A stretch of DNA of 64,000 nucleotides from an uncultured Alphaproteobacteria bacterium (GTDB taxonomy: Bacteria; Pseudomonadota; Alphaproteobacteria; HIMB59; GCA-002718135), in contig CACBLW010000001.1 in the NCBI GenBank assembly GCA_902540265.1, positions 66,687 through 130,686 on the forward strand, in the 5' to 3' direction. Below are positions 45,950 to 64,000 of this stretch, in pieces. Position numbers and translations under genes: made by a program. The stretch's first letter is position 1. Each line of letters starts with the position of its first letter. The notes below the pieces were generated by a model. That model worked only from the letters and a program-made list of their open reading frames with translations. It had not been told where the DNA came from and ran no database searches.

Positions 45950-45980
45950 TTTGAGATTATTTATTATTAACTTTTTATTA

Positions 45981-46012
45981 CAGCGGCTTTATAAAAGCCG
46001 CTGTTTTATTTT
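45981..46012 (+). terminator. Rho-independent terminator after the binding-protein gene
   Basis: CAGCGGCTTT (45981-45990) pairs with AAAGCCGCTG (45994-46003) around a 3-nt loop, followed by TTTTATTTT. Confidence 0.75.
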
Positions 46013-46036
46013 AAATTTAAATGGGAGTAAAAATAG

Positions 46037-47116: not shown

Positions 47117-47120
47117 GGTA

Positions 47121-48233: not shown

Positions 48234-48235
48234 TA

Positions 48236-49342
48236 ATGAAAAAAAATTTCAGGTTTTATGATAACAGACAAAAATACTTATTATTTGTCACAACAACAAA
48301 TGAAAAAAATCAAATTGCTGATGCGATACGCCCTCACATAAATAAAATTAAACCTCAAAAACCTGGCATAAAAATATTTGATGCTGGTATGGGTGATGGT
48401 TCCTTACTTATGAATGTTATGCGTCAGTGCCACGAGGCTAAGCCTAACGTACCTTTATTAGTTTGCACAAAAGAAATAAGCATAGAAGATGTAAGATTAG
48501 GTTTAGAAAAATTACCCGATAGGTTTGTTGAACATAAGAATACGGTTTTTGTCATTTCAAATCTACACTACGCTGAAGCTGCAAACCTAAAATCAAAAAA
48601 TGAAGTTAAACAGAAAAAAATTAATTGGAATATTATTAAATTAAAAGGAGATACCTCTCTTGAATTTGCCCAACAATTAAGAAAACAAAATGAATTTTTA
48701 GAAAAAAAATGGAATATAGAAATTAATAAAAAGTCAGGTAACCATACTTATAAAGAGCCTTCAGTCATGGTTATCTACCGCGAAGATCAAGAATTTAATG
48801 TAAATGAATTAATACCTACCAAAAAAAAATCAGATAATAAATTTGATCTTATTATTGCTTCACAGCCTTATCGTTCAAGAATCACAGCAGAAAAGAAATC
48901 AAAATATGTCATCGAACCAATGATTAGAGCGTTAAAATCAAAAGGGAAATTATTAACTATTCATGCTTCAGGAAAAGATCCTGCTAATGAAATAATTCGT
49001 AAAATTTGGCCAAAAGAGGACCCATTTCCTTCTCTTGGAAATAGTATCATTTCTTATCTTAAGAAAAATTTAGATAAAGATTTATTAAGAAGATTATCTT
49101 TTGGAGAAAAAAGAATTATTAAATGTAAATTGAGAGCTCTACCAACAGAAATCAGCGGAGGTATAGCGACATCATTAGTTTTTTCTGCTTGGAATGCCTC
49201 CATATATGTCAATCAAATGGATGACGACAAAGTAATGAAAGTAGAAAAAACTAAAAACTATGAAAAAATTGTTCAAAACATTGTTGCTAAAAATAAAGGT
49301 CTTTATTTTAACAATGAAATATTTGTAATCGAAAAAAAATAA
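48236..49342 (+). CDS. Hypothetical protein with Rossmann methyltransferase-like motif
   Basis: 368 aa. IFDAGMGDGS resembles SAM motif I, and DLIIASQPY and GKLLTIH resemble later motifs, with a long insertion between them. I recognise no characterised homolog. Confidence 0.45.
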   Translation: MKKNFRFYDNRQKYLLFVTTTNEKNQIADAIRPHINKIKPQKPGIKIFDAGMGDGSLLMNVMRQCHEAKPNVPLLVCTKEISIEDVRLGLEKLPDRFVEHKNTVFVISNLHYAEAANLKSKNEVKQKKINWNIIKLKGDTSLEFAQQLRKQNEFLEKKWNIEINKKSGNHTYKEPSVMVIYREDQEFNVNELIPTKKKSDNKFDLIIASQPYRSRITAEKKSKYVIEPMIRALKSKGKLLTIHASGKDPANEIIRKIWPKEDPFPSLGNSIISYLKKNLDKDLLRRLSFGEKRIIKCKLRALPTEISGGIATSLVFSAWNASIYVNQMDDDKVMKVEKTKNYEKIVQNIVAKNKGLYFNNEIFVIEKK

Positions 49343-49346
49343 TTTT

Positions 49347-50135
49347 TTATTTAAACCAATTAACTTCTGTTTTTAAAAAATCCTCTGTATGAATAATTAA
49401 GGCGTCAGATCGAATTATTGCAACATTATAATTTGTATCTGTATTAGCCGTTCCTAAACGATATTCATTTGAAAAGTTAGGTATTAGAGGAGACCAAGTA
49501 CTTCTTGGGGAGGAAAAAGTAATACCACAATAAGAGCCAGAACTTGTAATGTGTTGATGACCAAAAAAAATATGTTTTATTATATTATTATTTTTAGTTA
49601 AAATTTGTTGAAACTCTTTTTTTTGTTGTAATCCTATTCCATCACTTTCCTCTTTTACTAATGCCAGTGGATTATGATGCATAAAGATGTACGTATCCGT
49701 ATTAGTCTTACTTAAAATATTATTTAACCATTCTTGCCTCTCTTCACAATAATGTCCTTGGTGAGTGTTAATCAGATTAGTATCTATAAAAATTAAACGT
49801 TTATTATCTATATCCTTAAAGTATTGAATAAATCCATTTGGATCGGTTTCAATATCAGGAAAGTTTATTTTAAATTCATCTCTGTTATCATGATTACCTA
49901 TAATTAGTTGAGGATTTAAATTCTTCGGCAGACCTGCTTCATCAATTATTTTTAAAAATAACTGATAAGAATCTTTATCACCTAAGTCTGTAATATCACC
50001 TGTGATGGCAAATAAATCTGCATCACCATGATTATTTTTTATATGAGTTAATGCTTTTTTAAATTTACTGACAGGATCTATGCCATGAATCTTATCAATA
50101 TAAATATGAGGGTCTGAAAGGTGAATAATTTTCAT
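49347..50135 (-). CDS. Calcineurin-like metallophosphoesterase / phosphodiesterase
   Basis: 262 aa. Motifs HLSDPH, GDITDLGD, GNHDNR, MHHNP and GHQH are present. Confidence 0.8.
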   Translation of the reverse strand: MKIIHLSDPHIYIDKIHGIDPVSKFKKALTHIKNNHGDADLFAITGDITDLGDKDSYQLFLKIIDEAGLPKNLNPQLIIGNHDNRDEFKINFPDIETDPNGFIQYFKDIDNKRLIFIDTNLINTHQGHYCEERQEWLNNILSKTNTDTYIFMHHNPLALVKEESDGIGLQQKKEFQQILTKNNNIIKHIFFGHQHITSSGSYCGITFSSPRSTWSPLIPNFSNEYRLGTANTDTNYNVAIIRSDALIIHTEDFLKTEVNWFK

Positions 50136-52557: not shown

Positions 52558-53082
52558 ATGCAATTAAGCAACTATGATTTTATTGACTCTAAGTCATTTG
52601 CAGGAAAAATTATATTAACTTCTTTCCCAGGTCTTAACTCTAATGGTTTATTTGAAGAAACAATTTTAGCAAACGAATTAGAAATATTTAAAAATAATAA
52701 TTGTAGTTCTATTACTTCTTTTGTTGAAGATAGCGAATTTGAAAAATTGTGTGATAAAACTTTGTTTGTCAAAAATATTTATGAACATAAATTACATTGG
52801 TACCATTTACCCATTTATGACATGGGAGCACCAGATAAAGATTTTAAATATAAATGGGAAACAACAAAAGTTTTATTAAAGAACGAATTGATAGATGGTA
52901 AAAATATAGTCTTACATTGTCGTGGAGGAAAAGGAAGAGCTGGCACTATAGCTGCTATTTTACTTGTTGAATTTAATTATGAAAAACAAGAAGCTATTGA
53001 TTTAGTGCGATCAAGAAGAAAAGGAGCTATTGAGTCAAAAATCCAAGAAGATTTTATTTTTTCTTATCGAGCAGTTAATTAA
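52558..53082 (+). CDS. Dual-specificity / PTP-like CX5R phosphatase
   Basis: 174 aa with the active-site loop HCRGGKGRAGT. Its start abuts the phnZ-like stop (TAAATG). Confidence 0.7.
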   Translation: MQLSNYDFIDSKSFAGKIILTSFPGLNSNGLFEETILANELEIFKNNNCSSITSFVEDSEFEKLCDKTLFVKNIYEHKLHWYHLPIYDMGAPDKDFKYKWETTKVLLKNELIDGKNIVLHCRGGKGRAGTIAAILLVEFNYEKQEAIDLVRSRRKGAIESKIQEDFIFSYRAVN

Positions 53083-54131
53083 AAAGAGACCGTTAAATTA
53101 AAAATATTTTCTAGAATAAATAAAACAATTAAAGAAATTAAAGCTGCAATTATAGGTAGCGTCATCCAACCCAAAGAAATTCTACCTGCAATTGACCATT
53201 GAACCTCTTTTCCTCCTTTTAAAAGACCAATTCCAATTACGCCGCCGACAACAGCTTGGGAACTTGATACTGGTACCAAAGGTATAGAGGGAAGATTTAT
53301 AGATTGTAAAAAAGCACTTATACCCTGGGATGCAAATAAAAATAAAACAATAGAATGCGATATAACAACAATAAATGCTGCCACTGGTGTCATTTTTAAG
53401 AGATCATTACCCACGGTAAACATAACTCTTTTCGAGTAAGTAAAAACACCAACAGCTATTGCTAAACCACCCAGCAGAAATAATTGTTCTTTTGAGGAAA
53501 AGACAAATAAATTTCCAATAGTAACATCAGTAAACGGTGATATAGGTACGAAGACACCCATTACATTGGCAATATTGTTTGCACCTAAACTATAAGCACC
53601 AAAAGCACCCGCTAAAAGTAAAGCTGTTCTTGTATAGGCATCAAGTCTGAGAATATGTAACTTTCTATTGAGTATAACTCTTTTTGTAAAAGTAAATAAA
53701 CCCATTGCAATAACTCCTGCAATGATAGGGCAGAGTATCCATGTTCCTAAAATAGTAATTAAAACTTGAAGATTAGTTGAAGATCCCGTGTATAAATTCC
53801 AACCAACAATTGCTCCAACAATCGCTTGCGTTGTTGAAACAGGCAAGCCAACTTTGGTCATTAAATAAACGGATATGCCTGCAGCCACACATGCTGCAAA
53901 GGCACCAGGTAATGCATTAATAGCACCTAACTTACCTAAAGTTTCTGTTGTTCCTGCTCCACTAATAATTGCACCTAGAATAACAAAGACACTACAAATT
54001 ATTGCTGCACTTGTGAAACTAACCATTCGTGTTCCAACTGCAGTTCCAAAAACATTTGCTGCATCATTGGCACCAAGTGACCAACCTAAAAAAAAACCAC
54101 CAAATAAAAAAATTAGAATTGTAATTTCCAT
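53079..54131 (-). CDS. pit: Inorganic phosphate transporter, PiT (PHO4) family
   Basis: 350 aa. The motif GANDAANVFGTAVG occurs at the N-terminus and GANNIANVMG in the repeat. The protein is polytopic. Confidence 0.9.
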   Translation of the reverse strand: MEITILIFLFGGFFLGWSLGANDAANVFGTAVGTRMVSFTSAAIICSVFVILGAIISGAGTTETLGKLGAINALPGAFAACVAAGISVYLMTKVGLPVSTTQAIVGAIVGWNLYTGSSTNLQVLITILGTWILCPIIAGVIAMGLFTFTKRVILNRKLHILRLDAYTRTALLLAGAFGAYSLGANNIANVMGVFVPISPFTDVTIGNLFVFSSKEQLFLLGGLAIAVGVFTYSKRVMFTVGNDLLKMTPVAAFIVVISHSIVLFLFASQGISAFLQSINLPSIPLVPVSSSQAVVGGVIGIGLLKGGKEVQWSIAGRISLGWMTLPIIAALISLIVLFILENIFNLTVSF

Positions 54132-54137
54132 TGAAAA

Positions 54138-54800
54138 TTAAACGGAACGTTTAATAGCGTAAATTTGAACCTCGTCAGCTATGTCTTCTGCTTGATCACA
54201 AATACGATCAATTTTTTCTACAAAATATCGAAGATGCATTTTTTGATCTAGAGGTAATTCAGAATCAAAAATTCTTCTTGCAAGTGAACTAAATTTTATA
54301 TCAGATTCTTTTTCATAAAAAGTTACTTTATGAGCATTATCTCTAACAGATTTAATATCTCTAAAAAATGATCGGACAGTCAAACAAAGTGACTCAACAC
54401 AATTTACAACAGTCTCTGTTAACTCAATAAGATCTTCATGAAATTCTTTTGGAAAATTAGGTTTTTGAATAGAGAAGTGATAGCAATTTCCTTGGTACAT
54501 TCCAATTAATTCGTCGATGTGTTCTAGAAGTCGTAACACATCACTTCTTGCATCTGGGATTAGTGTTTCTTCATAAAGAGTATGCTCAACATCTTTTGTA
54601 ATTTTGTCGGCCTTACTTTCCATTTCTTTAACTTTTTCAACCATTTCCTCAAATTTACCATTGGCGGAATGATTGAGATAAGTTGGAACTATCGATTTAA
54701 ATACCAAACCTACTTCAGAGACAATATCAACAAACTCATCAATTTCTCTTTCAAGCTTTTTGGTATCACCAAATAATGATGCACTTTTTAATCCAAACAT
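54138..54800 (-). CDS. DUF47 / PhoU-like Pit accessory protein (TIGR00153 type)
   Basis: 220 aa and helical. It lies upstream of pit in the canonical pairing. Confidence 0.8.
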   Translation of the reverse strand: MFGLKSASLFGDTKKLEREIDEFVDIVSEVGLVFKSIVPTYLNHSANGKFEEMVEKVKEMESKADKITKDVEHTLYEETLIPDARSDVLRLLEHIDELIGMYQGNCYHFSIQKPNFPKEFHEDLIELTETVVNCVESLCLTVRSFFRDIKSVRDNAHKVTFYEKESDIKFSSLARRIFDSELPLDQKMHLRYFVEKIDRICDQAEDIADEVQIYAIKRSV

Positions 54801-54923
54801 GGCGTGCTTATAGAACTTTTCAAAAAAAAAGAAAGAAATGTTAAATTTTTGTTACAATTTGATTAATATCTTTATCTTTAAGTAAAGTGTAATATTCGCA
54901 ATCTATAGAATTTAGGAGAAGAT

Positions 54924-55151
54924 ATGACAGATTTATCAATTAATAGAATTAAGTGGTTTAGCACCGCGTTAATTTTATCAGGAATATTATTAACCAATTT
55001 AAATGCGTATCCAATTAACATAATTATTCACGGTACAGGTGCTGTTGGTTGGTCAATTGTTGGTTATATGACAAAAGATAGAGCTCTGCTCACAAACTTT
55101 GGTTTACAACTCCCACTATTTATTTTTGGATATATTTATTTGCTAACATGA
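54924..55151 (+). CDS. Small 3-TM membrane protein (75 aa)
   Basis: A GGAGAAG RBS is present and there are three hydrophobic segments. Its stop overlaps the arsC-like start (ATGA). Confidence 0.45.
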   Translation: MTDLSINRIKWFSTALILSGILLTNLNAYPINIIIHGTGAVGWSIVGYMTKDRALLTNFGLQLPLFIFGYIYLLT

Positions 55152-55567
55152 AAAATAAAAATATTCTTTTTATGTGTGTTGCTAATTCAGCAAGAAGTCA
55201 AATGGCTGAAGGAATTGCAAAAAAATTATATCCTAATTGCATTATTCAAAGTGCAGGATCAGTGCCCAAAGAAGTTAATCCTAATGCTATCGAGGTTATG
55301 GGTGAAATCGATATTGATATATCAAAACATTATTCAAAAGATTTTGAAAGCTTAGACAACAAATTTAGAGATGAATTAAATACCGTTTTTACGCTTTGTA
55401 AAGAAGAGGTATGTCCAGTTTTAAATTCCAAAGCTCAGATATTTTCAATACCATTTGATGATCCGGCATCAGATCATTTTAGTTCAAACCAATTAGATAA
55501 ATTTAGAGAAGTAAGAGATTCAATTTTTGATAAATTGAAAGAACTAAAAAATTTATTTGAGAATTAA
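55148..55567 (+). CDS. arsC: LMW-PTP-fold arsenate reductase-like protein
   Basis: 139 aa with the P-loop CVANSARS (CX5R) and a second Cys pair, LCKEEVCP, as in thioredoxin-coupled ArsC. Assignment as ArsC rather than LMW-PTP is not certain. Confidence 0.65.
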   Translation: MKNKNILFMCVANSARSQMAEGIAKKLYPNCIIQSAGSVPKEVNPNAIEVMGEIDIDISKHYSKDFESLDNKFRDELNTVFTLCKEEVCPVLNSKAQIFSIPFDDPASDHFSSNQLDKFREVRDSIFDKLKELKNLFEN

Positions 55568-55704
55568 TGAAGTTAAAAATTAATTAAATTTATAAAAATT
55601 TAATATTCCATTAATCTATTTGTAAACAATAAAATTTAAATGTTTCTTACCACTCACAGTATTATTTCCTCCTGCTAATTACCAATAATTGTGAGTGGGA
55701 TTAA
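55508..55704 (+). repeat. Direct repeat copy A (last 20 codons of the arsC-like gene plus a downstream hairpin element)
   Basis: It aligns end to end with 58520-58715, at roughly 80-85% identity by my hand alignment. The first 20 nt are identical, and so are several 15-20-nt blocks. Confidence 0.85.
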
Positions 55705-55778
55705 TTTTTTATTTCTCCTTTTTCGAGTACTTTAACAATTGTTTAACATTATAAAATTAAGAATTTAAAGTAAATTTT

Positions 55779-56621
55779 ATGAAAATTAATAAACCAGCGC
55801 TTACCTTTTCTAACTCCGAAGTTAATCCTGTTGGAAAGATTATTATTCAATTAACCGAATTGGGAACGGGTAAAATTAAGTTACGTAAGTTGTATGAGGA
55901 TTATTTAAGAGAAAATTTACCTCCAGAGAATTTTTGGCATGATGCAATTGAAAGATTAGGTCTCCGTATTCAGACACATTATCATTCTAAAAGTAATATT
56001 CCTAAAAATGGCAAACTTGTCGTAATCGCTAACCATGCATTTGGAATAGCTGATGGTCTTACAATATGCTCTTTAATTAGTAAAATTAGACAAGATTACA
56101 AAATTATTACGCATAAAGTTTTACAAGGAGCAGATCTTATTAAGAATAAAATTATTCCTCTTGATTTTTCAAAAAATAGAAATGCTTTAATAAATAATAT
56201 CGCTGCACGTAAAGAATGCGAAGAACACTTAAGAAATAATGGGGCACTAATCATTTTTCCATCAGGATCAGTTTCAACGAAACCAAAATTAAAAAAAGGA
56301 ATCAAAGCAATAGATCGTGAATGGAAACAATTTACTTCAAAAATAATAATGAAAACTCAATCACCTGTCCTCCCAATTTTTTTTGAAGGACAAAATAGCG
56401 AACTTTTTCATGTTGCTGATAAAATTGGGCAAGTCTTTCGATATTCTTTAATGATATATGAACTTAAAAGAAGAATGGGAAAAAAAATTGATGTTCATAT
56501 TGGACAAAGAATACCCTTTGAAACCATAAAAGAAATTGGCAATCTTATTGAGATTACAAAATTTTTAAGGAATAGCACTTATAGATTAGATCCAAGTAAT
56601 AAAAACTCAATATTTAATTAA
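55779..56621 (+). CDS. PlsC-superfamily acyltransferase (aminolipid/lysolipid O-acyltransferase-like)
   Basis: 280 aa with ANHAFGIADG (acyltransferase His-Asp block) and FPSGSVS (FPEG-like block). Confidence 0.7.
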   Translation: MKINKPALTFSNSEVNPVGKIIIQLTELGTGKIKLRKLYEDYLRENLPPENFWHDAIERLGLRIQTHYHSKSNIPKNGKLVVIANHAFGIADGLTICSLISKIRQDYKIITHKVLQGADLIKNKIIPLDFSKNRNALINNIAARKECEEHLRNNGALIIFPSGSVSTKPKLKKGIKAIDREWKQFTSKIIMKTQSPVLPIFFEGQNSELFHVADKIGQVFRYSLMIYELKRRMGKKIDVHIGQRIPFETIKEIGNLIEITKFLRNSTYRLDPSNKNSIFN

Positions 56622-56699
56622 TACTTCTGTAAAAAAAAAATTTAGTTAATGTAATTGAAATAAAATTTTAACAAATTCTTTCTATTATTTATTAATAAA

Positions 56700-57506
56700 A
56701 TGAAAGATCAGCAATCAGTTTCATATTATAGAACTATATGGATATCTGATCTTCATCTTGGAACAGAAAATAGCAAGAGTGAAATGCTTCTTGAATTTTT
56801 GAGATCAACAGATTCAAAATATTTATTTTTAGTTGGCGATATTATTGATGCATGGAGAATGAAAAAAAAAATTTATTGGCATCAAACTCATAATGACATT
56901 ATCCAGAAGATTTTGCGTAAAGCAAGAAAAGGTACAAAAGTAATATTTATCCCAGGTAATCATGACGAACTTGTGAAAAGTTACACAAGTTTTTCACTAG
57001 GGAATATATCAATAAAAAATAAGTTTACACACAAATTAGCTGATGGAAGAAATGCCCTTGTTTTACATGGTGATGAATTTGATGCAGTTATATTAAACGC
57101 TAAATGGCTGGCAAGTATTGGGTCATCTCTATACGAATTTATATTAAAGTTGAATAACTATCTAAATTTTGTCAGAAGAAAACTAGGTCTATCTTATTGG
57201 TCATTATCTCAATTTCTCAAACATCAAACAAAAAGAGCCACGAATTTTATTTCTAACTTTGAGTTTGCCGTATCTGATAGTGCTAAAAGAGCAAATGCTG
57301 ATGTTGTTGTGTGCGGCCATATTCATAAGCCCATTATAAAAAAATTAAATGGAGTTTTATATTGCAATGATGGTGATTGGGTTGAGAGTTGTTCTGCGCT
57401 AGTGGAAAATAATGAGGGACAATTATCCCTTATTGACTGGTCAATTGAAAGAGAAAAAATTTTTCAACATAAACATAACAAACTAGCAGAAAGTGTATTA
57501 GTGTGA
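56700..57506 (+). CDS. plcP: LpxH-like metallophosphoesterase, PlcP-type phospholipase C candidate
   Basis: 268 aa. Motifs ISDLHLG, VGDIID, GNHD and GHIH are present. It is directly coupled to a GT4 glycosyltransferase, as in the published plcP-agt phosphate-stress lipid-remodelling pair. Confidence 0.75.
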   Translation: MKDQQSVSYYRTIWISDLHLGTENSKSEMLLEFLRSTDSKYLFLVGDIIDAWRMKKKIYWHQTHNDIIQKILRKARKGTKVIFIPGNHDELVKSYTSFSLGNISIKNKFTHKLADGRNALVLHGDEFDAVILNAKWLASIGSSLYEFILKLNNYLNFVRRKLGLSYWSLSQFLKHQTKRATNFISNFEFAVSDSAKRANADVVVCGHIHKPIIKKLNGVLYCNDGDWVESCSALVENNEGQLSLIDWSIEREKIFQHKHNKLAESVLV

Positions 57507-58498
57507 AAAAATTAGCGATCATTACCGATGCTTGGCTTCCCCAAGTTAATGGTGTGGTAAATACATACCAACATATTAATCCATTTTTAAAACAAAAGTA
57601 TCAAATTGAAGTACTCCACCCAATGATGTTTACTAATTTTAGTTATCCTTGGTATAAGGAAATAAAAATAGCAATTAATACAAAAAAAATAACAGAAAAA
57701 TTTTTTGGTGATTATGATCCAGATGTTATACATATTGCCACTGAAGGACCAGTTGGAATTGCGGGGAAAAAATTCTGTGAGAATAATAAGTTGAGATATA
57801 CAACCTCTTTTCATACGAGATTTCCAGAATATATAGAGCAAAGAATAATGATACCAAAAATAATTGGGTACTCTTTTTTAAAAAATTTTCATAAAAATGC
57901 ATGTAATGTATTGGTCCCAACAATATCTATGCGTAACGAATTAACTAAATATCAATTTCAAAATCTTAAAATTTGGTCAAGGGGAGTTAATACTGAATTA
58001 TTTAATCCTTTAAAAAGAAAAAAGGGAATGAAAAAGTATATTGTTTACATTGGTAGGGTTTCATTAGAAAAAAACATCGAAGCGTTTTTAGAAATAAGAA
58101 CTAAGATGCATAAAATTGTTGTTGGAGATGGTCCAGAAAAGCAACGATTACAAAATAAATATCCACATGTGTCTTTCGTTGGGATGAAAAAAGGTCAAGA
58201 CCTAGCAAACTATTATGCAAATGCTGAAGCATTGGTATTCCCATCCAAAACAGATACATTTGGAAATGTAATTTTAGAGTCTTTAGCCTCTGGCACACCA
58301 GTGGCTGCTTACCCAGTAACAGGTCCTAAAGATATTTTAAAAAACTCATTAATTGATAGCCTTGATAATAATATTGAAAACTCACTTAATAAAGCCTTAA
58401 AGATTGATAGAAAAGATTGTAGAAAATTTGCAATGCAATTTACTTGGGATAAATGTGCAAATCAATTTCTATCAAATGTTGTAAATGCAAAAAATTAA
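57503..58498 (+). CDS. agt: GT4 glycosyltransferase (glycosyl-diacylglycerol synthase, Agt-like)
   Basis: 331 aa. PQVNGV, GRVSLEKN and the FPS.TDTFGNV.LE (EX7E-like) motif are present. It overlaps the plcP stop by 4 nt. Confidence 0.8.
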   Translation: MKKLAIITDAWLPQVNGVVNTYQHINPFLKQKYQIEVLHPMMFTNFSYPWYKEIKIAINTKKITEKFFGDYDPDVIHIATEGPVGIAGKKFCENNKLRYTTSFHTRFPEYIEQRIMIPKIIGYSFLKNFHKNACNVLVPTISMRNELTKYQFQNLKIWSRGVNTELFNPLKRKKGMKKYIVYIGRVSLEKNIEAFLEIRTKMHKIVVGDGPEKQRLQNKYPHVSFVGMKKGQDLANYYANAEALVFPSKTDTFGNVILESLASGTPVAAYPVTGPKDILKNSLIDSLDNNIENSLNKALKIDRKDCRKFAMQFTWDKCANQFLSNVVNAKN

Positions 58499-58519
58499 TT
58501 TTAAAATTATAGTTACTAA

Positions 58520-58715
58520 GAAGTAAGAGATTCAATTTTCAAAAATTGAAGGAACTAAAAAATTTATTTGAAAACCAATAAATTAAAAAATTAGTTTAAT
58601 TTATAAAAATTTAATATTCTATTAACACGTCTGTAAAAAATAAAATTTAATTACATCTTACCACTCGCAGTATTATTTCTTCCTGCTTATGTCCAATTAT
58701 TGTGAGTGGGATTAA
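58520..58715 (+). repeat. Direct repeat copy B (decayed arsC 3'-end relic plus hairpin element)
   Basis: It has the same order and orientation as copy A. The coding-derived part reads EVRDSIFKN* and has no upstream ORF. Confidence 0.85.
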
Positions 58716-58724
58716 ATTCCATTT

Positions 58725-60824
58725 TCAAATTTTTAAATTAGACTTAGCTCTAGATTTGAGTTTTGCTGAACCCCTCCCAGACAAGCTTGGATTTTTGATA
58801 AAAAAATTGTGAGAGGAAAATTTTTTTTCTTTGCTTGATATTTCTTTTTTCTGATAATTGCCATTACTCAACATTTGCCAAGAATTTGTATTATCTGCCA
58901 TACTGGCAATTAAGATCTGATTTAATATTTGTTCATGTACAGTTTCATTTTCAATAGGGATGAATGTTTCAACCCGCCTATCTAGATTTCTTTGCATTAA
59001 ATCGGCAGAAGAAATAAACAAGATATTTTTTCTATGAGGGAATTTATGACCGTTATAAAAACAATATATTCTCGTATGTTCTAAAAAACGACCAATTATA
59101 CTTTTAACAACTATATTTTCCGATAGATTTTCTTTACCAGGTATTAGAGAGCAAATTCCTCTTATCAACAATTCAATTTTTACATTTTTTTGAGATGCTT
59201 TATAAAATTCATCAATAATTTGTTTATCAACAAGAGAATTACACTTACATACTATTCCAGATGGTTTATTTTTTCCAGCATTTGTAATTTCATTTCTAAT
59301 TAGTTCATTTAATTTGTTTCTTGCAGTTATTGGAGAATATACTATTTTTTTTATTGTGGTTGGTTCTGAATAACTAGTTAAATAATTAAACATTTTTGCA
59401 GCATCATTTGTTAATGTTTTGTCACAGGTGAAGTAAGATAAATCCATATAAACTCTTGCATTTCTTGGGTGATAATTACCTGTTCCATAATGTGCGTAAT
59501 TTACAACAGAATTCATTTGCTTCCTTGTTACAAGTGTAATTTTTGCATGAGTCTTCATATCAATATTGCCAAAAACAACTTGCGCTCCAGCTAATTCTAA
59601 TTCTTTTGCCCATTTTAAGTTACGCTCTTCATCAAAACGTGCTTGCAACTCTATAATGACAGTTACTAATTTTCCTTTTTGTGCTGCTCTAACTAAACTT
59701 GCTTCTATTGGTGAGTCATCAGTAGTTCGGTATAAAGTATGTTTTATTGATAAGACTTTTGGGTCATCTGCAGCTTGATCAATAAACTGAGTCACTACTT
59801 CAAAAGATTCAAAAGGGTGATGAATAACAATATCTTTATTTGCTATAGCTTTAAAATAATCATTTTTAAAATCTTTAATTCTTTCAGGAAATCGTACCTT
59901 AAATTTTGGAAAAAATAATTTTTTAAAATCTTTCAAAAAAATTGACTCTATACTCGAAAGATTAACGGGTATTGGCAGTTTATATGTATTTACATCCTTA
60001 TAGTTAAGTTTTTTATTTATGAATTTAATTAAGTGACTAGATATACTTTCATCAAAATCAATTCTTATTACCTCTTGTCTTCTTCTCTCAAAAATAGCTT
60101 TTTGAAATACTAAAAATAAATCTTCTCCCTCACCACCTAATTCTAATTCACTATTCCTAATTGGTCTAAAAACACCTTTATCCAAAACCCTATCACACTG
60201 GAAAATTTCTTTTAGAGAAATAAGTAGGGCTGTCTCCATAGATACAAAACGTGTTTTTTTACCAGGTAATTTAATAAATTTTTCTAATCCCTCTGGCACT
60301 CTCAGTATTCCATAAAAAGTTTTTTTATTATTTATTAAACGACATACTAAGGTTGTTTCTTTATTTGGTATAAAAGGAAATGGGTGAGATGGATCAATAA
60401 TAATTGGCGTTAAAACTCCCCAATTATTTTCTTCTAAATAATTTTTAATAAATGTTTTATCTTTTGTTTTCAGTGTTTTTTCTACATCTATATGGATTTT
60501 GTTTTCTGAAAGCTCTCTTAGTAAATCTATCCATATTGATTTTATATTTGAAATCATCTTCGATGTTTCTTTATCTATCAGCTTGAGTTGTTGTTGTGGT
60601 GTTAATCCATCAAAACTTTTATTTCGTGAAAATTTTTGAACATTCAATCCTGCTACTCTAACCATAAAAAATTCATCTAAATTAGAGAATGCTATTGATA
60701 AAAATCTAACCCTTTCTAAAAGTGGAATTTTACTATCAGATGTCTGACTTAAGACTCTTTCATTGAATTTTAGCCAAGACAATTCCCTGTTTGCATAGTT
60801 ATAAGTGGTATTTTTTTTTAACAT
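58725..60824 (-). CDS. ppk: Polyphosphate kinase 1
   Basis: 699 aa. The N-terminus is NRELSWLKFNERVL. The sequence has the PPK1 four-domain length, and HAKI and related blocks are present. Confidence 0.95.
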   Translation of the reverse strand: MLKKNTTYNYANRELSWLKFNERVLSQTSDSKIPLLERVRFLSIAFSNLDEFFMVRVAGLNVQKFSRNKSFDGLTPQQQLKLIDKETSKMISNIKSIWIDLLRELSENKIHIDVEKTLKTKDKTFIKNYLEENNWGVLTPIIIDPSHPFPFIPNKETTLVCRLINNKKTFYGILRVPEGLEKFIKLPGKKTRFVSMETALLISLKEIFQCDRVLDKGVFRPIRNSELELGGEGEDLFLVFQKAIFERRRQEVIRIDFDESISSHLIKFINKKLNYKDVNTYKLPIPVNLSSIESIFLKDFKKLFFPKFKVRFPERIKDFKNDYFKAIANKDIVIHHPFESFEVVTQFIDQAADDPKVLSIKHTLYRTTDDSPIEASLVRAAQKGKLVTVIIELQARFDEERNLKWAKELELAGAQVVFGNIDMKTHAKITLVTRKQMNSVVNYAHYGTGNYHPRNARVYMDLSYFTCDKTLTNDAAKMFNYLTSYSEPTTIKKIVYSPITARNKLNELIRNEITNAGKNKPSGIVCKCNSLVDKQIIDEFYKASQKNVKIELLIRGICSLIPGKENLSENIVVKSIIGRFLEHTRIYCFYNGHKFPHRKNILFISSADLMQRNLDRRVETFIPIENETVHEQILNQILIASMADNTNSWQMLSNGNYQKKEISSKEKKFSSHNFFIKNPSLSGRGSAKLKSRAKSNLKI

Positions 60825-60884: not shown

Positions 60885-61343
60885 TTAATAATTTTTATTT
60901 TTTGGTTTTAAAATTTTATCAATAGTCCAGCTATTTTTAAAGGATATTATAGCAAAAGCACAGGTTGGAAAATGTTCAATATTTGAATTACATAAAATAT
61001 TAATTGATTCTATCAAACTAGGGTTGTGTCCAATGATAAGAGTATTTTTTTTTAATTTTTTAATTTTTCTTACAAGTATATTTGGTGGGCATTCATAAAT
61101 ATCGTTATCAATTGTAAATTTTACTGAGCGATCAAATGAATTAGAAATTATATCATATGTGCTAGTTGTTCTTTTAGAAGGAGAACATATTATCTGATTA
61201 ATTTGAAATTTTCTTTTATCTAATATTTTAGAAAATTGTTTTGCGTTTCTCATACCTCTTTTATTCAGCGGCCTATCAATGTCATCAAGTTCTAAATTAT
61301 CCCAACTAGATTTGGCGTGACGTAATAAATAGACTTGTAGCAT
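60885..61343 (-). CDS. Histidine-phosphatase superfamily protein (SixA-like)
   Basis: 152 aa. Motifs LLRHAKS, RPLNKRG and GHNPS are present. Confidence 0.7.
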   Translation of the reverse strand: MLQVYLLRHAKSSWDNLELDDIDRPLNKRGMRNAKQFSKILDKRKFQINQIICSPSKRTTSTYDIISNSFDRSVKFTIDNDIYECPPNILVRKIKKLKKNTLIIGHNPSLIESINILCNSNIEHFPTCAFAIISFKNSWTIDKILKPKNKNY

Positions 61344-61375: not shown

Positions 61376-62281
61376 ATGGCTAAAAAGAAAAATAAAAATC
61401 CCATAACAGTTATTGATCTAGGCTCTAATACATTTAGACTAGTTATATACGCGCAAGCTATTCATCCTTTTCCAATACTTTATCAAAAAAGAGAATTCTT
61501 AAAATTAGGTGAAAGTATTAAAATAGGTAAACTCCCATCGATAAAAATAAAAGAAGCTATAAAATGCTTAGAAGAATATATTAAGATTGCAAAAGATTAT
61601 GAGTCCTCAGATATTCATATAATTGCAACGGCCGCAATTCGTGAAACAATAAATGGAAAAGAAATTATTGAACCCTTCAAGAAAAAAAAGTCAGTTAGAG
61701 TAGAAGTGCTCTCACCAAAAAATGAGGCTAAATGCGGATCCCTAGGTGTAATTAGTTCAATAAAAAATCCAATCGGTTTAGTTGCTGACTTGGGAGGTGG
61801 AAGTTTAGAACTTAGTACTATAAAAAATGAAAACATACTTGAAACTAAAAGTTTAAAAATTGGCATCTTAAGAAGTGAATCTGATATGTACAAAACTACT
61901 AAAATTAAATTTGATAATTTTTTATTTTCTAAATTTAAAAACCAATCTCTTAAATTTTCTAAAAACGTAGGAAATATTTATGTTATTGGAGGCATGTGGC
62001 GCAATCTTGCAAAACTTCATTTGCACCTAAATGGAATCAAGAAAAATAAATTACATGGGTACATGATACCATTTTCAGAGTTAGAAATATTTTATCACAA
62101 ATTATATTCTATGGAAAAAAAACAAATTCAAAAATTGAATGTTGTCCAACCCAATCGATTAGATAAATTAAAATTATCTACATATATTTTATTTAGCCTT
62201 GCTTCATTTTATAACATTAAAAATATTATTTTTGTAAGATATGGAATCCGTGAAGGCTACTTGTACAATATGTTGAACTAA
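61376..62281 (+). CDS. ppx: Ppx/GppA-family phosphatase (short, N-terminal domains only)
   Basis: 301 aa. The start VIDLGSNTFRLVIY and ADLGGGSLEL are present, and the fold is ASKHA-like. Confidence 0.8.
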   Translation: MAKKKNKNPITVIDLGSNTFRLVIYAQAIHPFPILYQKREFLKLGESIKIGKLPSIKIKEAIKCLEEYIKIAKDYESSDIHIIATAAIRETINGKEIIEPFKKKKSVRVEVLSPKNEAKCGSLGVISSIKNPIGLVADLGGGSLELSTIKNENILETKSLKIGILRSESDMYKTTKIKFDNFLFSKFKNQSLKFSKNVGNIYVIGGMWRNLAKLHLHLNGIKKNKLHGYMIPFSELEIFYHKLYSMEKKQIQKLNVVQPNRLDKLKLSTYILFSLASFYNIKNIIFVRYGIREGYLYNMLN

Positions 62282-62954: not shown

Positions 62955-63956
62955 CTAAACGTTTACCATGAATTCTAAAAATTCATTCACACATTTGTCC
63001 CAAGTTAATTTAAGAGTAAAATTTCTACAATCAACTCTTTTTACTTTAAGTGCCTTCTTAACTGATTGTAACAAGTTATAATCTAAAGTGTTAATCTTTT
63101 CATCTGTTAACACATCTATGGGCCCGGTTACTGGATATGCAGCAATTGGTGTTCCACTAGCCAATGCTTCAAGTATTACATTTCCTAAAGTGTCTGTTTT
63201 AGAAGGAAAGACAAATACATCTGCGTTTGCATAATATTTCGCTAGTTCATCTCCAGTTTTTACACCGACAAAATTTACTTCAGGATATTTATTAATATAT
63301 TTTTGTAATTCGGGACCATCACCCACAACAGTTTTATTATAATTTCCTTTAAGTTTTAAAAATTCTTCAATATTTTTTTCAATTGCTACTCTACCAACAT
63401 AAGTCAGTTGTCTATCTTTACTGTTTGTGTCTCTTTTATTTGGATTAAATAATTCTGTATCAACACCTCTATTCCAAACTACTAAATTTTTAAAATCATA
63501 TTTTTTTAACTCATTTAGCATTGAAACTGATGGAACAAGAACTCTTTCTGAATCACTATGTAGTCTTCTTAATATGGAGTATGTAAATCTCTTTGGGATA
63601 AAAGCTCTTTGCTTCATGTAGTCAGGAAAACGGGTGTGAAAGGAAGAAGTGTATTGTAGTTTATTTTTAAGACAGTACTTACGACCAGCAAAACCTACTG
63701 GACCTTCAGTCATTATATGAACAATATCTGGATTAAATTCTTTAAAAAATTTTTCAGTAACTTTTTTAGTATTGTAAGAAATTTTTATTTCTTTGTACCT
63801 AGGATAACTAAAATTATTAAACATCTCAGGATGTAATATTTTAATTTCAAAACCTTTTTTTTCTAGAATAGGTATAACGCTTTGAAATGTCGTAACTACG
63901 CCATTTACCTGAGGAACCCACGCATCACTAATTAACGCGATTTTTTTAGGCTGCAT
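62955..63956 (-). CDS. GT4 glycosyltransferase, paralog of the agt-like gene at 57503
   Basis: 333 aa and collinear with the 57503-58498 product. More than half the residues are identical by eye (DAW.PQVNGVV, TSFHTRFP, VGDGPE, FPSKTDT.GNVILE.LASGTP.AAYPVTGP). Confidence 0.8.
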   Translation of the reverse strand: MQPKKIALISDAWVPQVNGVVTTFQSVIPILEKKGFEIKILHPEMFNNFSYPRYKEIKISYNTKKVTEKFFKEFNPDIVHIMTEGPVGFAGRKYCLKNKLQYTSSFHTRFPDYMKQRAFIPKRFTYSILRRLHSDSERVLVPSVSMLNELKKYDFKNLVVWNRGVDTELFNPNKRDTNSKDRQLTYVGRVAIEKNIEEFLKLKGNYNKTVVGDGPELQKYINKYPEVNFVGVKTGDELAKYYANADVFVFPSKTDTLGNVILEALASGTPIAAYPVTGPIDVLTDEKINTLDYNLLQSVKKALKVKRVDCRNFTLKLTWDKCVNEFLEFMVNV

Positions 63957-64000
63957 CCTCTTTTATTTTTCGTCTTTCTTCTAAAGAAATTAATTTTAAT

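What the first reader, a model, noticed from the sequence alone, without database searches (positions are those of the whole stretch)
55508..58715. 197-bp direct repeats (gene 3' end plus hairpin) bracket the acyltransferase-plcP-agt lipid-remodelling cassette
Seen in the sequence: 55508-55704 and 58520-58715 align over their whole length in the same orientation, at about 80-85% identity by hand. The first 20 nt are identical, and so are the blocks AAAAAATTTATTTGA, TTTATAAAAATTTAATATTC, CTTACCACTC and TTGTGAGTGGGATTAA. Copy A starts inside the last 20 codons of the intact arsC-like gene. Copy B carries the same codons, decays to a stop after nine codons (EVRDSIFKN*) and has no ORF upstream, so it is a relic gene end. 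Exactly three genes lie between the copies, all linked to phosphate-starvation membrane-lipid replacement. This is the scar expected from integration of a circular DNA at a gene's 3' end (attL/attR or Campbell-type), yet no integrase or transposase is present. The cassette may therefore be gained and lost by recombination between the repeats.
Basis: partly seen in the sequence, partly recalled or inferred. Interest (0 to 1): 0.7.

Follow-up and report, generated by a model that had tools for sequence, protein, structure and literature searches.

The report
Repeat-flanked phosphate-starvation gene cassette in SAR11
Two 197-base direct repeats flank three phosphate-starvation lipid genes in a SAR11-type marine bacterium, and closely related cells have lost the genes by ordinary recombination between the repeats, which shows at base level how a genome without mobile-element genes sheds accessory genes.

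Summary
Copy A (55507-55704) and copy B (58519-58715) are direct repeats, 169/197 identical with one indel. The local alignment scores 138, against a maximum of 28-30 for shuffled or random window sequence.

Each copy has three parts: the last 20 codons of the arsC-like gene (a decayed relic in B), an AT-rich spacer, and a 10-bp hairpin that is conserved with compensatory changes.

Six single-cell genomes have identical PPK proteins, and their ArsC-like proteins are identical or differ only at the C-terminus through the crossover. All six carry arsC, one hybrid repeat, then ppk, with no cassette. Their crossovers fall at three different places in the repeat. This is homologous recombination, not site-specific recombination, and no integrase lies within 10 kb.

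The site is a small flexible island with at least five occupancy states. The cassette is composite:
- The acyltransferase arrived separately from plcP2-agt2.
- Copy B came in with plcP2-agt2.
- A third partial repeat sits at 56594-56648.
- The cassette genes are paralogues of core genes; a second plcP-agt pair lies 4 kb away.

Loss is shown. Gain by Campbell-type integration of a circle is inferred. This is a clear new example of a known kind: SAR11 flexible islets turned over by homologous recombination.

The parts
55148..55567 (+). arsC-like low-molecular-weight phosphatase gene (139 aa). Its last 20 codons form the start of repeat copy A.
   Evidence: ORF. Pfam LMWPc, E 7e-14. NCBIfam arsC_pI258 family, 93 bits, below the cutoff of 174.
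55507..55704 (+). Repeat copy A. It comprises the arsC 3' end (55507-55567), an AT-rich spacer (55568-55649) and the hairpin (55650-55699).
   Evidence: It is nearly invariant in 12 related single-cell genomes.
55650..55699 (+). Hairpin A. The stem is CCACTCACAG/TTGTGAGTGG (10 bp). The loop is about 30 nt and contains UUUCCUCCU. A T-rich run follows.
   Evidence: RNA fold: -15.1 kcal/mol, z -3.2. Covariance model: 86.9 bits. The stem is 97-100% paired across lineages, with 3 pairs changed on both sides.
55731..55748 (+). Pho-box-like direct repeat TTTAACA-ATTG-TTTAACA, ending 30 nt before the acyltransferase ATG. It is the putative PhoB-dependent promoter element of the cassette.
   Evidence: The pattern TKTAAYA-N4-TKTAAYA occurs twice in the window, against 0.14 expected. 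The other site lies upstream of phoU_div-pitA. The same motif sits upstream of pstS in L010 and upstream of the 470-aa gene in L103/L104.
55779..56621 (+). Acyltransferase (280 aa), resembling the O-acyltransferases of ornithine and glycine lipid synthesis.
   Evidence: Pfam Acyltransf_2 and Acyltransferase. NCBIfam OlsF N-terminal half (144 bits) and GlsA (89 bits), both below cutoff. Close homologues are 83-100% identical, then there is a gap to 60-66%.
56594..56648 (+). Third, partial copy of the repeat spacer. It overlaps the last codons of the acyltransferase gene. No hairpin remains here.
   Evidence: the repeat finder D2. BLAST of the empty-site unit, positions 114-169, 82%, E 3e-9. In relative L105 the same position holds a full spacer plus hairpin.
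56700..57506 (+). plcP2, a PlcP-like metallophosphoesterase (268 aa). It is 70% identical to the core PlcP encoded about 4 kb away.
   Evidence: Pfam Metallophos. BLASTP against L001:18799-19611. All close homologues fall in one 90% cluster; the next are SAR11 PlcPs at 70-77%.
57503..58498 (+). agt2, an Agt/GTcp-like GT4 glycosyltransferase (331 aa) that overlaps plcP2 by 4 nt. It is 60% identical to the core Agt at 62955-63956.
   Evidence: Pfam Glyco_trans_1_4 and Glyco_transf_4. BLASTP. It contains GRVSLEKN and FPSKTDTFG, the two motifs named for GTcp in PMC8231724.
58519..58715 (+). Repeat copy B. It comprises the relic arsC 3' end with a 1-nt deletion (58519-58578), the spacer, and the hairpin (58661-58710).
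   Evidence: In relatives L103 and OZSS01000047 the relic still keeps the arsC reading frame.
58661..58710 (+). Hairpin B, 14 nt from the ppk stop codon. The A-to-G change in its 5' arm keeps a G.U pair only on the + strand.
   Evidence: The + strand folds at -16.7 kcal/mol, z -3.6. The - strand folds at -11.5 kcal/mol, z -0.9. Covariance model: 89 bits.
58725..60824 (-). ppk (polyphosphate kinase 1, 699 aa), the right-hand core flank, convergent with arsC.
   Evidence: All four PPK Pfam domains. The protein is 100% identical in the empty-site genome L010.
62955..64000 (-). Core agt (62955-63956) and the start of the core plcP, which runs off the window. This is the resident paralogous pair, present in occupied and empty genomes alike.
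   Evidence: The pair is present in every locus, including the empty ones.

Best explanation
**What it is.** The organism is a SAR11-type bacterium (31.5% GC; the nearest records are Pelagibacteraceae single-cell genomes). The short space between the convergent genes arsC-like and ppk is a small flexible genomic island inside the phosphate-acquisition region.

The resident sequence there is a roughly 290-bp unit. It consists of the arsC 3' end, an AT-rich spacer, a conserved hairpin that most likely ends the arsC transcript, and the ppk 3' end.

In the window, accessory genes for phosphorus-free membrane lipids sit between two copies of the left 197 bp of that unit. These genes are an aminolipid-type acyltransferase with a Pho-box-like promoter element, then plcP2-agt2.

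**What is shown.**
- RecA-type homologous recombination between the two copies deletes the cassette and leaves one hybrid copy.
- This has happened at least twice, and possibly three times, independently in the sampled population.

**What is inferred.**
- The duplication arose when plcP2-agt2 entered on a circular DNA that carried a copy of the whole unit. Such a circle is what the same pop-out reaction would release in another cell.
- That circle integrated by a single homologous crossover (Campbell type). This leaves a relic arsC end on the right and, in less-deleted relatives, a relic ppk end on the left.
- The acyltransferase entered separately. A later deletion removed a 470-aa gene and its terminator, fusing the three genes into one probable Pho-regulated operon that ends at hairpin B.

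No dedicated recombinase is involved.
For: **The repeat is real and the relic is real**.

**Empty sites with one hybrid copy.** They occur in six single-cell genomes: L010/L101, L093, L094, L095, L100 and L097. PPK was compared directly between the window and L010 and is 100% identical. All six were retrieved by exact PPK-protein look-up. The ppk DNA differs from the window by 1-2 bases in 2095.

**Three crossover positions**:
- inside AACTAAAAAATTTATTTGA (four genomes; arsC becomes 140 aa)
- inside AATTTATAAAAATTTAATATTC (L097)
- inside AGTATTATTTC in the hairpin (L010)

In 10 of the 12 occupied genomes both copies are almost uniform (0-2 differences per copy); L003_B, L096_B and L099_A are mosaic. 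The three hybrids therefore cannot all be ancestral.

**No recombinase.** No integrase or transposase Pfam family is recorded within 10 kb either side, and there is no tRNA.

**Other occupancy states of the same site.**
- Acyltransferase only, followed by a relic of the 470-aa gene, that gene's own hairpin, then ppk, with no copy B (L111).
- Four genes (L103, L104).
- Four genes plus a UgpBAEC-like transporter (OZSS01000047.1).
- A distant relative with PPK 75% identical is empty and keeps the hairpin (L013).

**Relic ppk end.** A 57-63-nt relic of the ppk 3' end lies upstream of plcP2 in L103, L104 and OZSS (89-93% identical). In metagenome contig L117 that relic is preceded by the hairpin-type junction CATTTTCAAA. 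A full-unit duplication around plcP2-agt2 predicts exactly this.

**Diversity pattern.** The cassette plus copy B differ by only 0.07-0.6% among 12 genomes, while the flanks differ by up to 4.7%. In five genomes the first difference is at 58720, 5 nt after repeat B, and ppk then diverges by about 1.4%. That places a recombination breakpoint at the repeat edge.

**Hairpin conservation.** It is conserved with compensatory changes, and it follows arsC even where the convergent neighbour is a MIP channel gene rather than ppk.

**Paralogy of the cargo**.
Against: - No circular or reciprocal junction (B-left joined to A-right) was found. The collections that could be scanned hold very few SAR11 contigs of this type: one metagenome contig and none in viral contigs. 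This absence is therefore weak evidence.
- The direction of events could not be polarised. Comparing copies A and B with outgroup units gave differences too small to decide (71-85% either way). The commonest empty allele (four genomes) could be the ancestral state rather than a deletion.
- The low-diversity tract around the cassette extends left to about 54.9 kb, beyond copy A. Spread between strains may therefore have used ordinary double crossovers in flanking genes rather than circle integration.
- The crossover in L010 lies in an identical tract of only 11 nt, which is short for RecA-dependent exchange.
- The hairpin's role as a terminator is not shown. The simple terminator scan did not flag it because its loop is long, and copy B lacks a clean T run.
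Confidence: 0.8

Rival explanations
1. The repeats are attL and attR of an integrative element moved by a site-specific recombinase encoded elsewhere in the genome or now lost. The hairpin would be the recombination site.
For: - The target gene's 3' end is duplicated, as with elements that integrate into gene ends.
- One empty-site crossover falls inside the hairpin (L010).
- Two different cassettes begin within about 10 nt of the 3' foot of the hairpin: the acyltransferase in the window and the Ugp transporter in OZSS.
Against: - There are three different crossover positions, spread over 140 nt of the repeat.
- No integrase, transposase or tRNA lies within 10 kb.
- Copies A and B differ by 14% along their whole length and have no shared core flanked by divergent arms.
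- Neither the repeat nor the cassette genes were found in viral contigs.
Confidence: 0.04
2. The duplication arose in place. The arsC-end/hairpin/ppk-end unit was tandemly duplicated, or illegitimate (microhomology) joins occurred when foreign linear DNA was inserted. No circular intermediate was involved, and the repeats are only substrates for loss.
For: - The left edges of homology are sharp and lie at arbitrary positions. Copy B begins 20 nt after the agt2 stop.
- The acyltransferase 3' end appears joined to the spacer at a shared ATAAAAA. This comes from comparison with the core acyltransferase gene, which lacks the spacer.
- The 470-aa gene was removed by non-repeat deletions in the window and in L111.
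Against: - A tandem duplication made in place would start with identical copies. A and B are 14% apart, while the cassette itself is under 0.6% diverse. This suggests one copy came from a diverged donor. Gene conversion and mosaic copies (L099_A, L003_B, OZSS_B) blur this argument.
- The paired relics, a ppk end on the left and an arsC end on the right of plcP2-agt2, are what a single crossover with a unit-bearing circle gives.
Confidence: 0.2
3. The repeat is a generic dispersed intergenic element (REP/MITE-like, or a common terminator family) that happens to occur twice here.
For: A spacer-plus-hairpin copy (78 bits) follows the acyltransferase gene in L105, in a different gene neighbourhood.
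Against: - The covariance model finds no other copy in the 64-kb window or in about 330 kb of other SAR11 loci.
- The motif searches find only the two copies.
- The repeat includes 60 nt of arsC coding sequence.
- It has no terminal inverted repeats or target-site duplication.
- The L105 copy travels with the same cassette gene.
Confidence: 0.04
4. The empty sites are assembly artefacts: the repeats collapsed in single-cell assemblies.
For: The genomes are amplified single-cell assemblies. The junctions fall in tracts that are identical in both copies, as collapse would produce.
Against: - The longest identical tracts are only 11-22 nt, and the copies are 14% apart.
- Six independent assemblies, on contigs of 20-374 kb, show it.
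- Four of them share one junction that also changes the ArsC protein to 140 aa.
- A distant MAG (L013) and a separate lineage (L112-L116) also lack the cassette.
Confidence: 0.02

Closest known systems
Small flexible genomic islands of SAR11 populations (Molina-Pardines et al. 2025, PMC11796062; Haro-Moreno et al. 2020, PMC7318151)
   Same: - Variable gene content sits at a fixed position between core genes of conspecific cells.
- There are no mobile-element genes.
- The cargo consists of one to a few genes that are paralogues of core genes.
- Exchange is attributed to homologous recombination.
- In four of their islands a partial repeat of the flanking tRNA marks a cassette insertion.
   Different: - Here the duplicated flank is the 3' end of a protein-coding gene plus its hairpin, not a tRNA.
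- The loss reaction is caught in the population with three crossover points.
- Nested relics of both convergent gene ends document stepwise stacking.
- Terms for the genes of this site (polyphosphate, arsenate, phospholipase, lipid) have no hits in that paper's main text.
Campbell-type integration and excision of circular DNA by a single homologous crossover (the textbook behaviour of non-replicating plasmids; from general knowledge)
   Same: - Direct repeats of the homology region flank the insert.
- Excision leaves one hybrid copy.
- The crossover can fall anywhere in the homology.
   Different: - No circular form has been seen.
- The homology is short (about 200-290 bp) and 14% diverged.
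- The event is natural, and the source of the circle is unknown.
Phosphate-related flexible genomic islands of HIMB59/AEGEAN-169 (PMC10734472) and the phosphate-gene richness of SAR11 HTCC7211 (PMC4796936)
   Same: The gene set is the same: SET-domain protein, glycerol facilitator, ppx, SixA-like phosphatase, ppk, low-molecular-weight phosphatase, LpxH-like/PlcP, GT4 glycosyltransferase, phoR and pstS. Island versions differ between strains.
   Different: Those studies describe gene-content versions, not junction sequences. Direct repeats are not mentioned in PMC10734472.
PlcP-Agt lipid-remodelling operon (Sebastian et al. 2016, PMC4796936; Wei et al. 2021, PMC8231724)
   Same: - A metallophosphoesterase gene is followed by, and overlaps, a GT4 glycosyltransferase gene.
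- The glycosyltransferase carries the GRVxxEKN and FPSxTDTFG motifs.
- The neighbourhood is phosphate-related.
   Different: - The cassette pair is a second copy, 70% and 60% identical to the pair next to phoR-pstS. Its activity is untested.
- It is preceded by an aminolipid-type acyltransferase.
- In the passages searched, those papers do not report two pairs in one genome (the term 'two copies' had 0 hits in PMC4796936 and 'paralog' 0 hits in PMC8231724).
Integron gene-cassette arrays
   Same: Several cassettes are stacked at one site, each followed by an imperfect hairpin-forming element.
   Different: - There is no IntI integrase.
- The crossover positions vary.
- At least two cassettes carry their own Pho-box-like promoter elements.
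- The hairpin is the resident gene's 3' structure, not an attC.

Membership tests
Site-specific integrative element (attL/attR) | A recombinase (integrase) gene within or next to the element | tested here: not met
   The precomputed Pfam families of all genes within 10 kb either side in L001-L010 include no integrase, transposase or resolvase. The three cassette ORFs are an acyltransferase, a Metallophos protein and a GT4.
Site-specific integrative element (attL/attR) | Recombination at one fixed core sequence | tested here: not met
   Six empty sites show three different crossover positions.
Site-specific integrative element (attL/attR) | Duplication of the 3' end of the target gene | tested here: met
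   Copy B holds a relic of the last 20 arsC codons.
Insert flanked by direct repeats and turned over by homologous recombination (Campbell-type) | Same-orientation repeats bracket the insert | tested here: met
   Copies at 55507-55704 and 58519-58715, 86% identical.
Insert flanked by direct repeats and turned over by homologous recombination (Campbell-type) | Empty alleles carry exactly one hybrid copy (left part of A, right part of B) | tested here: met
   L010/L101, L093, L094, L095, L097 and L100.
Insert flanked by direct repeats and turned over by homologous recombination (Campbell-type) | Crossovers distributed along the homology, in tracts of identity | tested here: met
   The three positions lie in identical tracts of 19, 22 and 11 nt.
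Insert flanked by direct repeats and turned over by homologous recombination (Campbell-type) | A circular excision product or reciprocal junction | tested here: inconclusive
   The degenerate 27-nt pattern would have matched a B-left/A-right junction. It found only one metagenome contig, which holds normal copies, and nothing in viral contigs. Raw reads cannot be searched with these tools.
SAR11 flexible genomic island | Presence/absence or content variation at a conserved position among near-identical genomes | tested here: met
   Five occupancy states lie between arsC and ppk. Flank identity is 95-99.9%.
SAR11 flexible genomic island | The cargo genes are paralogues of core genes | tested here: met
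   PlcP2 is 70% and Agt2 60% identical to the core pair. The acyltransferase is 84-85% identical to a gene in a core NmrA|acyl|ccmH context of other SAR11.
Intrinsic (rho-independent) terminator, for the hairpin | A stable stem conserved by covariation at the 3' end of a gene | tested here: met
   The stem is 10 bp and 97-100% paired. Three pairs have changes on both sides. It follows arsC in lineages with 68-100% ArsC identity.
Intrinsic (rho-independent) terminator, for the hairpin | A short loop and a U tract immediately after the stem | tested here: inconclusive
   The loop is about 30 nt, so the scan did not call it. Copy A is followed by GATTAATTTTTTATTT, copy B by GATTAAATTCCATTTTC.
PlcP-Agt lipid-remodelling operon | A metallophosphoesterase gene directly upstream of a GT4 gene that carries the GTcp motifs | tested here: met
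   The genes overlap by 4 nt. Pfam assignments. GRVSLEKN and FPSKTDTFG are present, compared with PMC8231724.
PlcP-Agt lipid-remodelling operon | Induction by phosphate starvation and production of glycolipids | not testable with these tools
   Only a Pho-box-like motif upstream of the acyltransferase supports regulation.
Integron cassette array | An IntI integrase and attI/attC sites | tested here: not met
   No integrase. Rfam and motif scans give no attC-like family match.

The most novel reading that the evidence does not exclude
The arsC-end/spacer/hairpin/ppk-end unit may act as a recombinase-free docking module. Under this reading, Pho-regulated cassettes in SAR11 populations are excised as circles by recombination between unit copies. 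They pass between cells and re-insert by a single homologous crossover at any copy of the unit. This would build and reshuffle cassette arrays in the way an integron does, but using only the host's general recombination system.

Three observations would be traces of that traffic: the stacked states seen here (acyltransferase; 470-aa protein; Ugp transporter; plcP2-agt2), the paired relics of both gene ends, and the very low diversity of the cassette compared with its flanks.
Probability: 0.2. Interest if true: 0.65.

Novelty: new member of a known kind. Interest (0 to 1): 0.45.

Why it matters
SAR11 is the most abundant heterotroph in the ocean. Its genomes are streamlined and almost free of mobile-element genes. 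Its ability to cope with phosphate scarcity nevertheless varies between strains.

This locus gives a base-level picture of how such variation is made and unmade. A roughly 200-bp duplicated gene end and hairpin lets a three-gene module for phosphorus-free lipids pop out by general recombination. Natural cells with and without the module coexist in a population whose flanking PPK protein is identical.

The locus also shows that some cells carry two plcP-agt pairs plus an aminolipid-type acyltransferase. That matters for reading plcP abundance in metagenomes as a phosphorus-stress marker.

Finally, the junction sequences are ready-made PCR and read-search targets for measuring how often the cassette is gained and lost in the sea.

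Tried and rejected
- **Rfam.** Nothing at gathering thresholds over the whole window. At E up to 5 over 55400-58900, only two chance snoRNA-like hits inside coding sequence. The hairpin belongs to no described RNA family.
- **tRNA or tmRNA as integration target.** None in the window.
- **Metagenome scan** with the 27-nt degenerate hairpin pattern: only one contig. This is too few for population counts or for finding a circular junction.
Only L013 was useful. In hindsight a DNA pattern or ArsC would have been a better query.
- **Viral contigs.** No copy of the hairpin and no PlcP2 relative, so there is no sign of a phage carrier.
- **Small ORF on the minus strand** starting after the AGGAGG of the loop. 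Rejected because the GTG start is GCG in copy B and the frame is absent in L013 (read).
- **Polarising which repeat copy is resident and which imported**, by comparison with L105, L013 and the internal partial copy. The differences were a few percent either way, so this is left open.
- **Look-up of the 140-aa ArsC allele** that marks junction type (i).
- **A second helix inside the loop** (ATTATT/AATAAT in copy A). It is broken in copy B, so it was not counted.

Full report
**1. The observation**

The window is AT-rich (31.5% GC). Around the finding it encodes, in order (ORFs, Pfam):

| Coordinates | Strand | Product |
|---|---|---|
| 53079-54131 | - | PitA |
| 54138-54800 | - | PhoU_div |
| 54924-55151 | + | DUF6552 protein |
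| 55148-55567 | + | LMWPc/arsC-like phosphatase |
| 55779-56621 | + | acyltransferase |
| 56700-57506 | + | metallophosphoesterase of the PlcP/LpxH type |
| 57503-58498 | + | GT4 glycosyltransferase |
| 58725-60824 | - | PPK1 |
| 60885-61343 | - | SixA-like phosphatase |
| 61376-62281 | + | Ppx |

The repeat finder reports the claimed pair in register. A gapped alignment gives 169 of 197 positions identical with one indel. The local score is 138, against maxima of 28 (500 shuffles) and 30 (about 2000 random 200-mers of the window). Motif searches and a covariance model find only these two copies in the 64 kb.

Copy A begins 61 nt before the arsC stop codon. Copy B carries the same codons with a 1-nt deletion, reads EVRDSIFKN*, and has no ORF upstream. 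The description is accurate.

One thing was missed. A third, partial copy of the spacer lies at 56594-56648 and overlaps the end of the acyltransferase gene (family D2, 82% over 56 nt).

**2. Anatomy of the repeat**

Each copy has three parts:
- 60 nt of arsC 3' coding sequence
- about 80 nt of AT-rich spacer
- a hairpin with a 10-bp stem (CCACTCACAG/TTGTGAGTGG) and a loop of about 30 nt containing UUUCCUCCU (CUUCCU in copy B)

As RNA, the + strand folds better than shuffles in both copies (z -3.2 and -3.6). The - strand of copy B does not (z -0.9). The reason is that the A-to-G change in copy B keeps a G.U pair only on the + strand.

Across lineages the stem stays 97-100% paired. Three pairs change on both sides, and every single-side change gives G.U on the + strand.

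The hairpin follows arsC in a distant MAG with PPK 75% identical (L013). It also follows arsC in a lineage with ArsC 68% identical, where the convergent neighbour is a MIP channel gene rather than ppk (L112-L116). It is therefore arsC's own 3' structure, most simply a transcript-end hairpin.

It matches no Rfam family. The simple terminator scan does not call it because the loop is long. Its function is inferred, not shown.

**3. Empty sites exist, with three different crossovers**

An exact-protein look-up of ArsC returned ten places in single-cell genome assemblies:
- Nine repeat the window's arrangement with both copies.
- The tenth (L010, GCA_902613415.1) has arsC followed directly by ppk, with one repeat copy.

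A look-up of PPK added five more empty genomes and three more occupied ones. PPK in L010 is 100% identical to the window's. The ppk DNA of the empty genomes differs from the window by 1-2 bases in 2095.

Aligning all copies shows that every single copy is A-like on the left and B-like on the right. The switch lies in three places:

| Type | Genomes | Crossover tract | Note |
|---|---|---|---|
| i | L093, L094, L095, L100 | AACTAAAAAATTTATTTGA | last arsC codons; ArsC becomes 140 aa |
| ii | L097 | AATTTATAAAAATTTAATATTC | |
| iii | L010 | AGTATTATTTC | at the 5' side of the hairpin loop |

Most of the twelve occupied genomes have almost uniform A and B copies. The three hybrids therefore cannot all be ancestral. 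At least two are independent deletions by recombination between the repeats.

Variable crossovers in tracts of identity are the signature of homologous recombination, not site-specific recombination. No integrase, transposase or tRNA lies nearby.

Assembly collapse is unlikely. The copies are 14% apart, their longest identical tracts are 11-22 nt, and six assemblies on long contigs agree.

**4. The site is a small island with several states, and the cassette is composite**

| State | Example | Content between arsC and ppk |
|---|---|---|
| Empty | L010, L093-L095, L097, L100; L013 (distant) | one unit only |
| Acyltransferase only | L111 (ArsC 86% identical) | full unit, Pho-box-like motif, acyltransferase, about 60 nt relic of a 470-aa gene, a different hairpin (GAAGCTGGATATATTCCAGC), then ppk; no copy B, no relic arsC end |
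| Three genes | the window and 12 SAGs | acyltransferase, plcP2, agt2 |
| Four genes | L103, L104 | acyltransferase, 470-aa secreted protein (no Pfam or NCBIfam match), plcP2, agt2 |
| Four genes plus transporter | OZSS01000047.1 | as above, plus a four-gene UgpBAEC-like transporter on the opposite strand, inserted within about 10 nt of the foot of hairpin A |

In the four-gene forms, a 57-63-nt relic of the ppk 3' end lies upstream of plcP2 (89-93% identical). So plcP2-agt2 is bracketed by a relic ppk end on its left and a relic arsC end on its right. This is what a single crossover between the resident unit and a circle carrying plcP2-agt2 plus one copy of that unit would produce.

In metagenome contig L117 the relic ppk end is preceded by the hairpin-type junction CATTTTCAAA, not by the other hairpin. 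This hints at the predicted allele with two full units.

In the window, the 470-aa gene, its hairpin and the relic ppk end have been deleted. The acyltransferase is left 78 nt from plcP2.

In another relative (L105) the acyltransferase and the 470-aa gene sit in an unrelated neighbourhood. There the acyltransferase is followed by a full spacer plus hairpin (78 bits) and by a relic resembling the ugpC 3' end. The spacer-hairpin module therefore travels with cassettes.

**5. The cargo**

PlcP2 is 70% and Agt2 60% identical to a second plcP-agt pair at 62955-64000 on the minus strand. That pair is present in every genome examined, empty or occupied, next to a MIP gene, a SET-domain gene, phoR and pstS.

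Agt2 keeps the GRVxxEKN and FPSxTDTFG motifs described for the characterised SAR11 enzyme GTcp (PMC8231724).

All close PlcP2 relatives fall in one 90% cluster. The next-nearest are SAR11 PlcPs at 70-77%.

The acyltransferase resembles the O-acyltransferase half of OlsF and also GlsA, both below curated cutoffs. Its nearest relatives outside the cassette group (84-85%) sit in a core context, NmrA|acyl|ccmH, without the hairpin.

The cassette is thus an accessory set of paralogues for phosphorus-free lipids. This fits the 'paralogism' described for SAR11 flexible genes (PMC11796062).

A direct repeat TTTAACA-ATTG-TTTAACA ends 30 nt before the acyltransferase start codon. The pattern T[GT]TAA[CT]A-N4-T[GT]TAA[CT]A occurs twice in the window against 0.14 expected. 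The other site is upstream of phoU_div-pitA. The same pattern lies upstream of pstS and of the 470-aa gene in relatives. It has the architecture of a Pho box. Regulation is inferred only.

**6. Signs of recent spread**

Relative to the window, the cassette differs by 2-16 bases in 2781 (0.07-0.6%) in all twelve occupied genomes. The flanks differ by up to 2.8% on the left and 4.7% on the right.

In five genomes copy B is identical to the window's. The first difference is at 58720, 5 nt after the repeat, and ppk is then about 1.4% divergent. That is a recombination breakpoint at the right edge of the repeat.

The low-diversity tract runs left to about 54.9 kb, beyond copy A. Transfer between strains may therefore have used ordinary flanking homology on that side.

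Mosaic A and B copies (L099_A, L003_B, L096_B, OZSS_B) show gene conversion or recombination within the repeats.

**7. What is shown and what is inferred**

Shown:
- the repeat and the relic
- presence/absence of the cassette among cells whose PPK protein is identical to the window's
- hybrid single copies with three crossover points
- absence of recombinase genes
- several occupancy states
- paired relics of both gene ends
- conservation of the hairpin

Inferred:
- the empty alleles of types (ii) and (iii) are deletions; type (i) may be ancestral
- the duplication arose by Campbell-type integration of a circle
- the hairpin ends transcripts
- the cassette is Pho-regulated and makes non-phosphorus lipids

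I could not polarise which copy is resident. I could not find a circular junction.

**8. Comparison with what is known**

The closest described phenomenon is the set of small flexible genomic islands of SAR11 populations. These lack mobile elements, carry paralogous cargo, are said to turn over by homologous recombination, and in four cases show a partial tRNA repeat marking a cassette insertion (PMC11796062).

Phosphate islands with the same gene set and several versions are described for HIMB59 (PMC10734472).

Deletion between direct repeats and Campbell-type integration are textbook reactions.

What is particular here:
- The duplicated flank is a protein-gene 3' end plus its hairpin.
- The loss reaction is documented with multiple crossovers in natural cells.
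- The nested relics show stepwise stacking of cassettes.

I therefore file it as a new member of a known kind.

**9. Verdict**

It needs correcting on the mechanism (homologous, not att-type) and on the unity of the cassette. Interest is moderate: 0.45.

Noticed in passing
window 62955-64000 (-); L001:17808-19611: A second plcP-agt pair lies about 4 kb from the cassette, next to a MIP channel gene, a SET-domain gene, phoR and pstS. It is 70% (PlcP) and 60% (Agt) identical to the cassette pair. It is present in all genomes examined, including those without the cassette.
   Followed up: partly
window 54839-54856 (-) and 55731-55748 (+); L010:18199-18216; L103:7901-7918; L083-L092 near 3417-3446: The direct-repeat motif T[GT]TAA[CT]A-N4-T[GT]TAA[CT]A has Pho-box architecture. 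It lies upstream of phoU_div-pitA, the cassette acyltransferase, pstS and the 470-aa gene. It occurs twice in the window against 0.14 expected. It is a candidate SAR11 PhoB site.
   Followed up: partly
L103:7951-9363, L104:7951-9363, L105:3504-4916, L012+L011 (6183-7613 of the joined sequence): A 470-476-aa protein with a signal-peptide-like N-terminus is acidic and rich in Gly, Asp and Asn. It has no Pfam or NCBIfam match. It is preceded by the Pho-box-like motif and travels with the acyltransferase. It is an uncharacterised candidate phosphate-starvation protein.
   Followed up: no
L103:5583-6373 compared with window 52558-55151: The pitA-phoU_div pair is itself variable. It is absent in L103, where the PTP-like gene abuts DUF6552. 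In L097 its region is only 86.7% identical to the window, with different genes upstream (aldehyde dehydrogenase, hydrolase).
   Followed up: no
L001:1985-4997 and L002:1-5012 compared with window about 44700-50135: There is a further content difference 5-10 kb to the left. L001 and L002 carry ABC-transporter genes (L002 also a GDPD-domain gene), where the window and most relatives have Meth_synt_2, Fe-ADH and an unannotated 368-aa gene. This is another small variable region.
   Followed up: no
window 58725-60824; L081, L083-L084, L087-L089, L092; L112-L116: This lineage's PPK1 is only about 47% identical to the PPK1 of other Pelagibacteraceae single-cell genomes returned by the genome scan. 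A lineage with ArsC 68% identical has no ppk-sixA-ppx block at this position, and arsC there converges on the MIP gene. The ppk block may itself be flexible.
   Followed up: no
window 55672-55680 and L013, L105, L111 hairpin loops: The hairpin loop keeps UUUCCUCCU, which resembles the anti-Shine-Dalgarno end of 16S rRNA, in copy A, L013, L105 and L111. It is absent from copy B (CUUCCU) and from the L112 lineage. Whether this has a function is unknown.
   Followed up: no
L105:2417-2452 and L105:3444-3476: A direct repeat of about 35 nt (AATTCATAAATTTTTAATAATACNCAAATAA) lies upstream of both the acyltransferase and the 470-aa gene in this contig. It may be a shared promoter region duplicated with the cassettes.
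   Followed up: no
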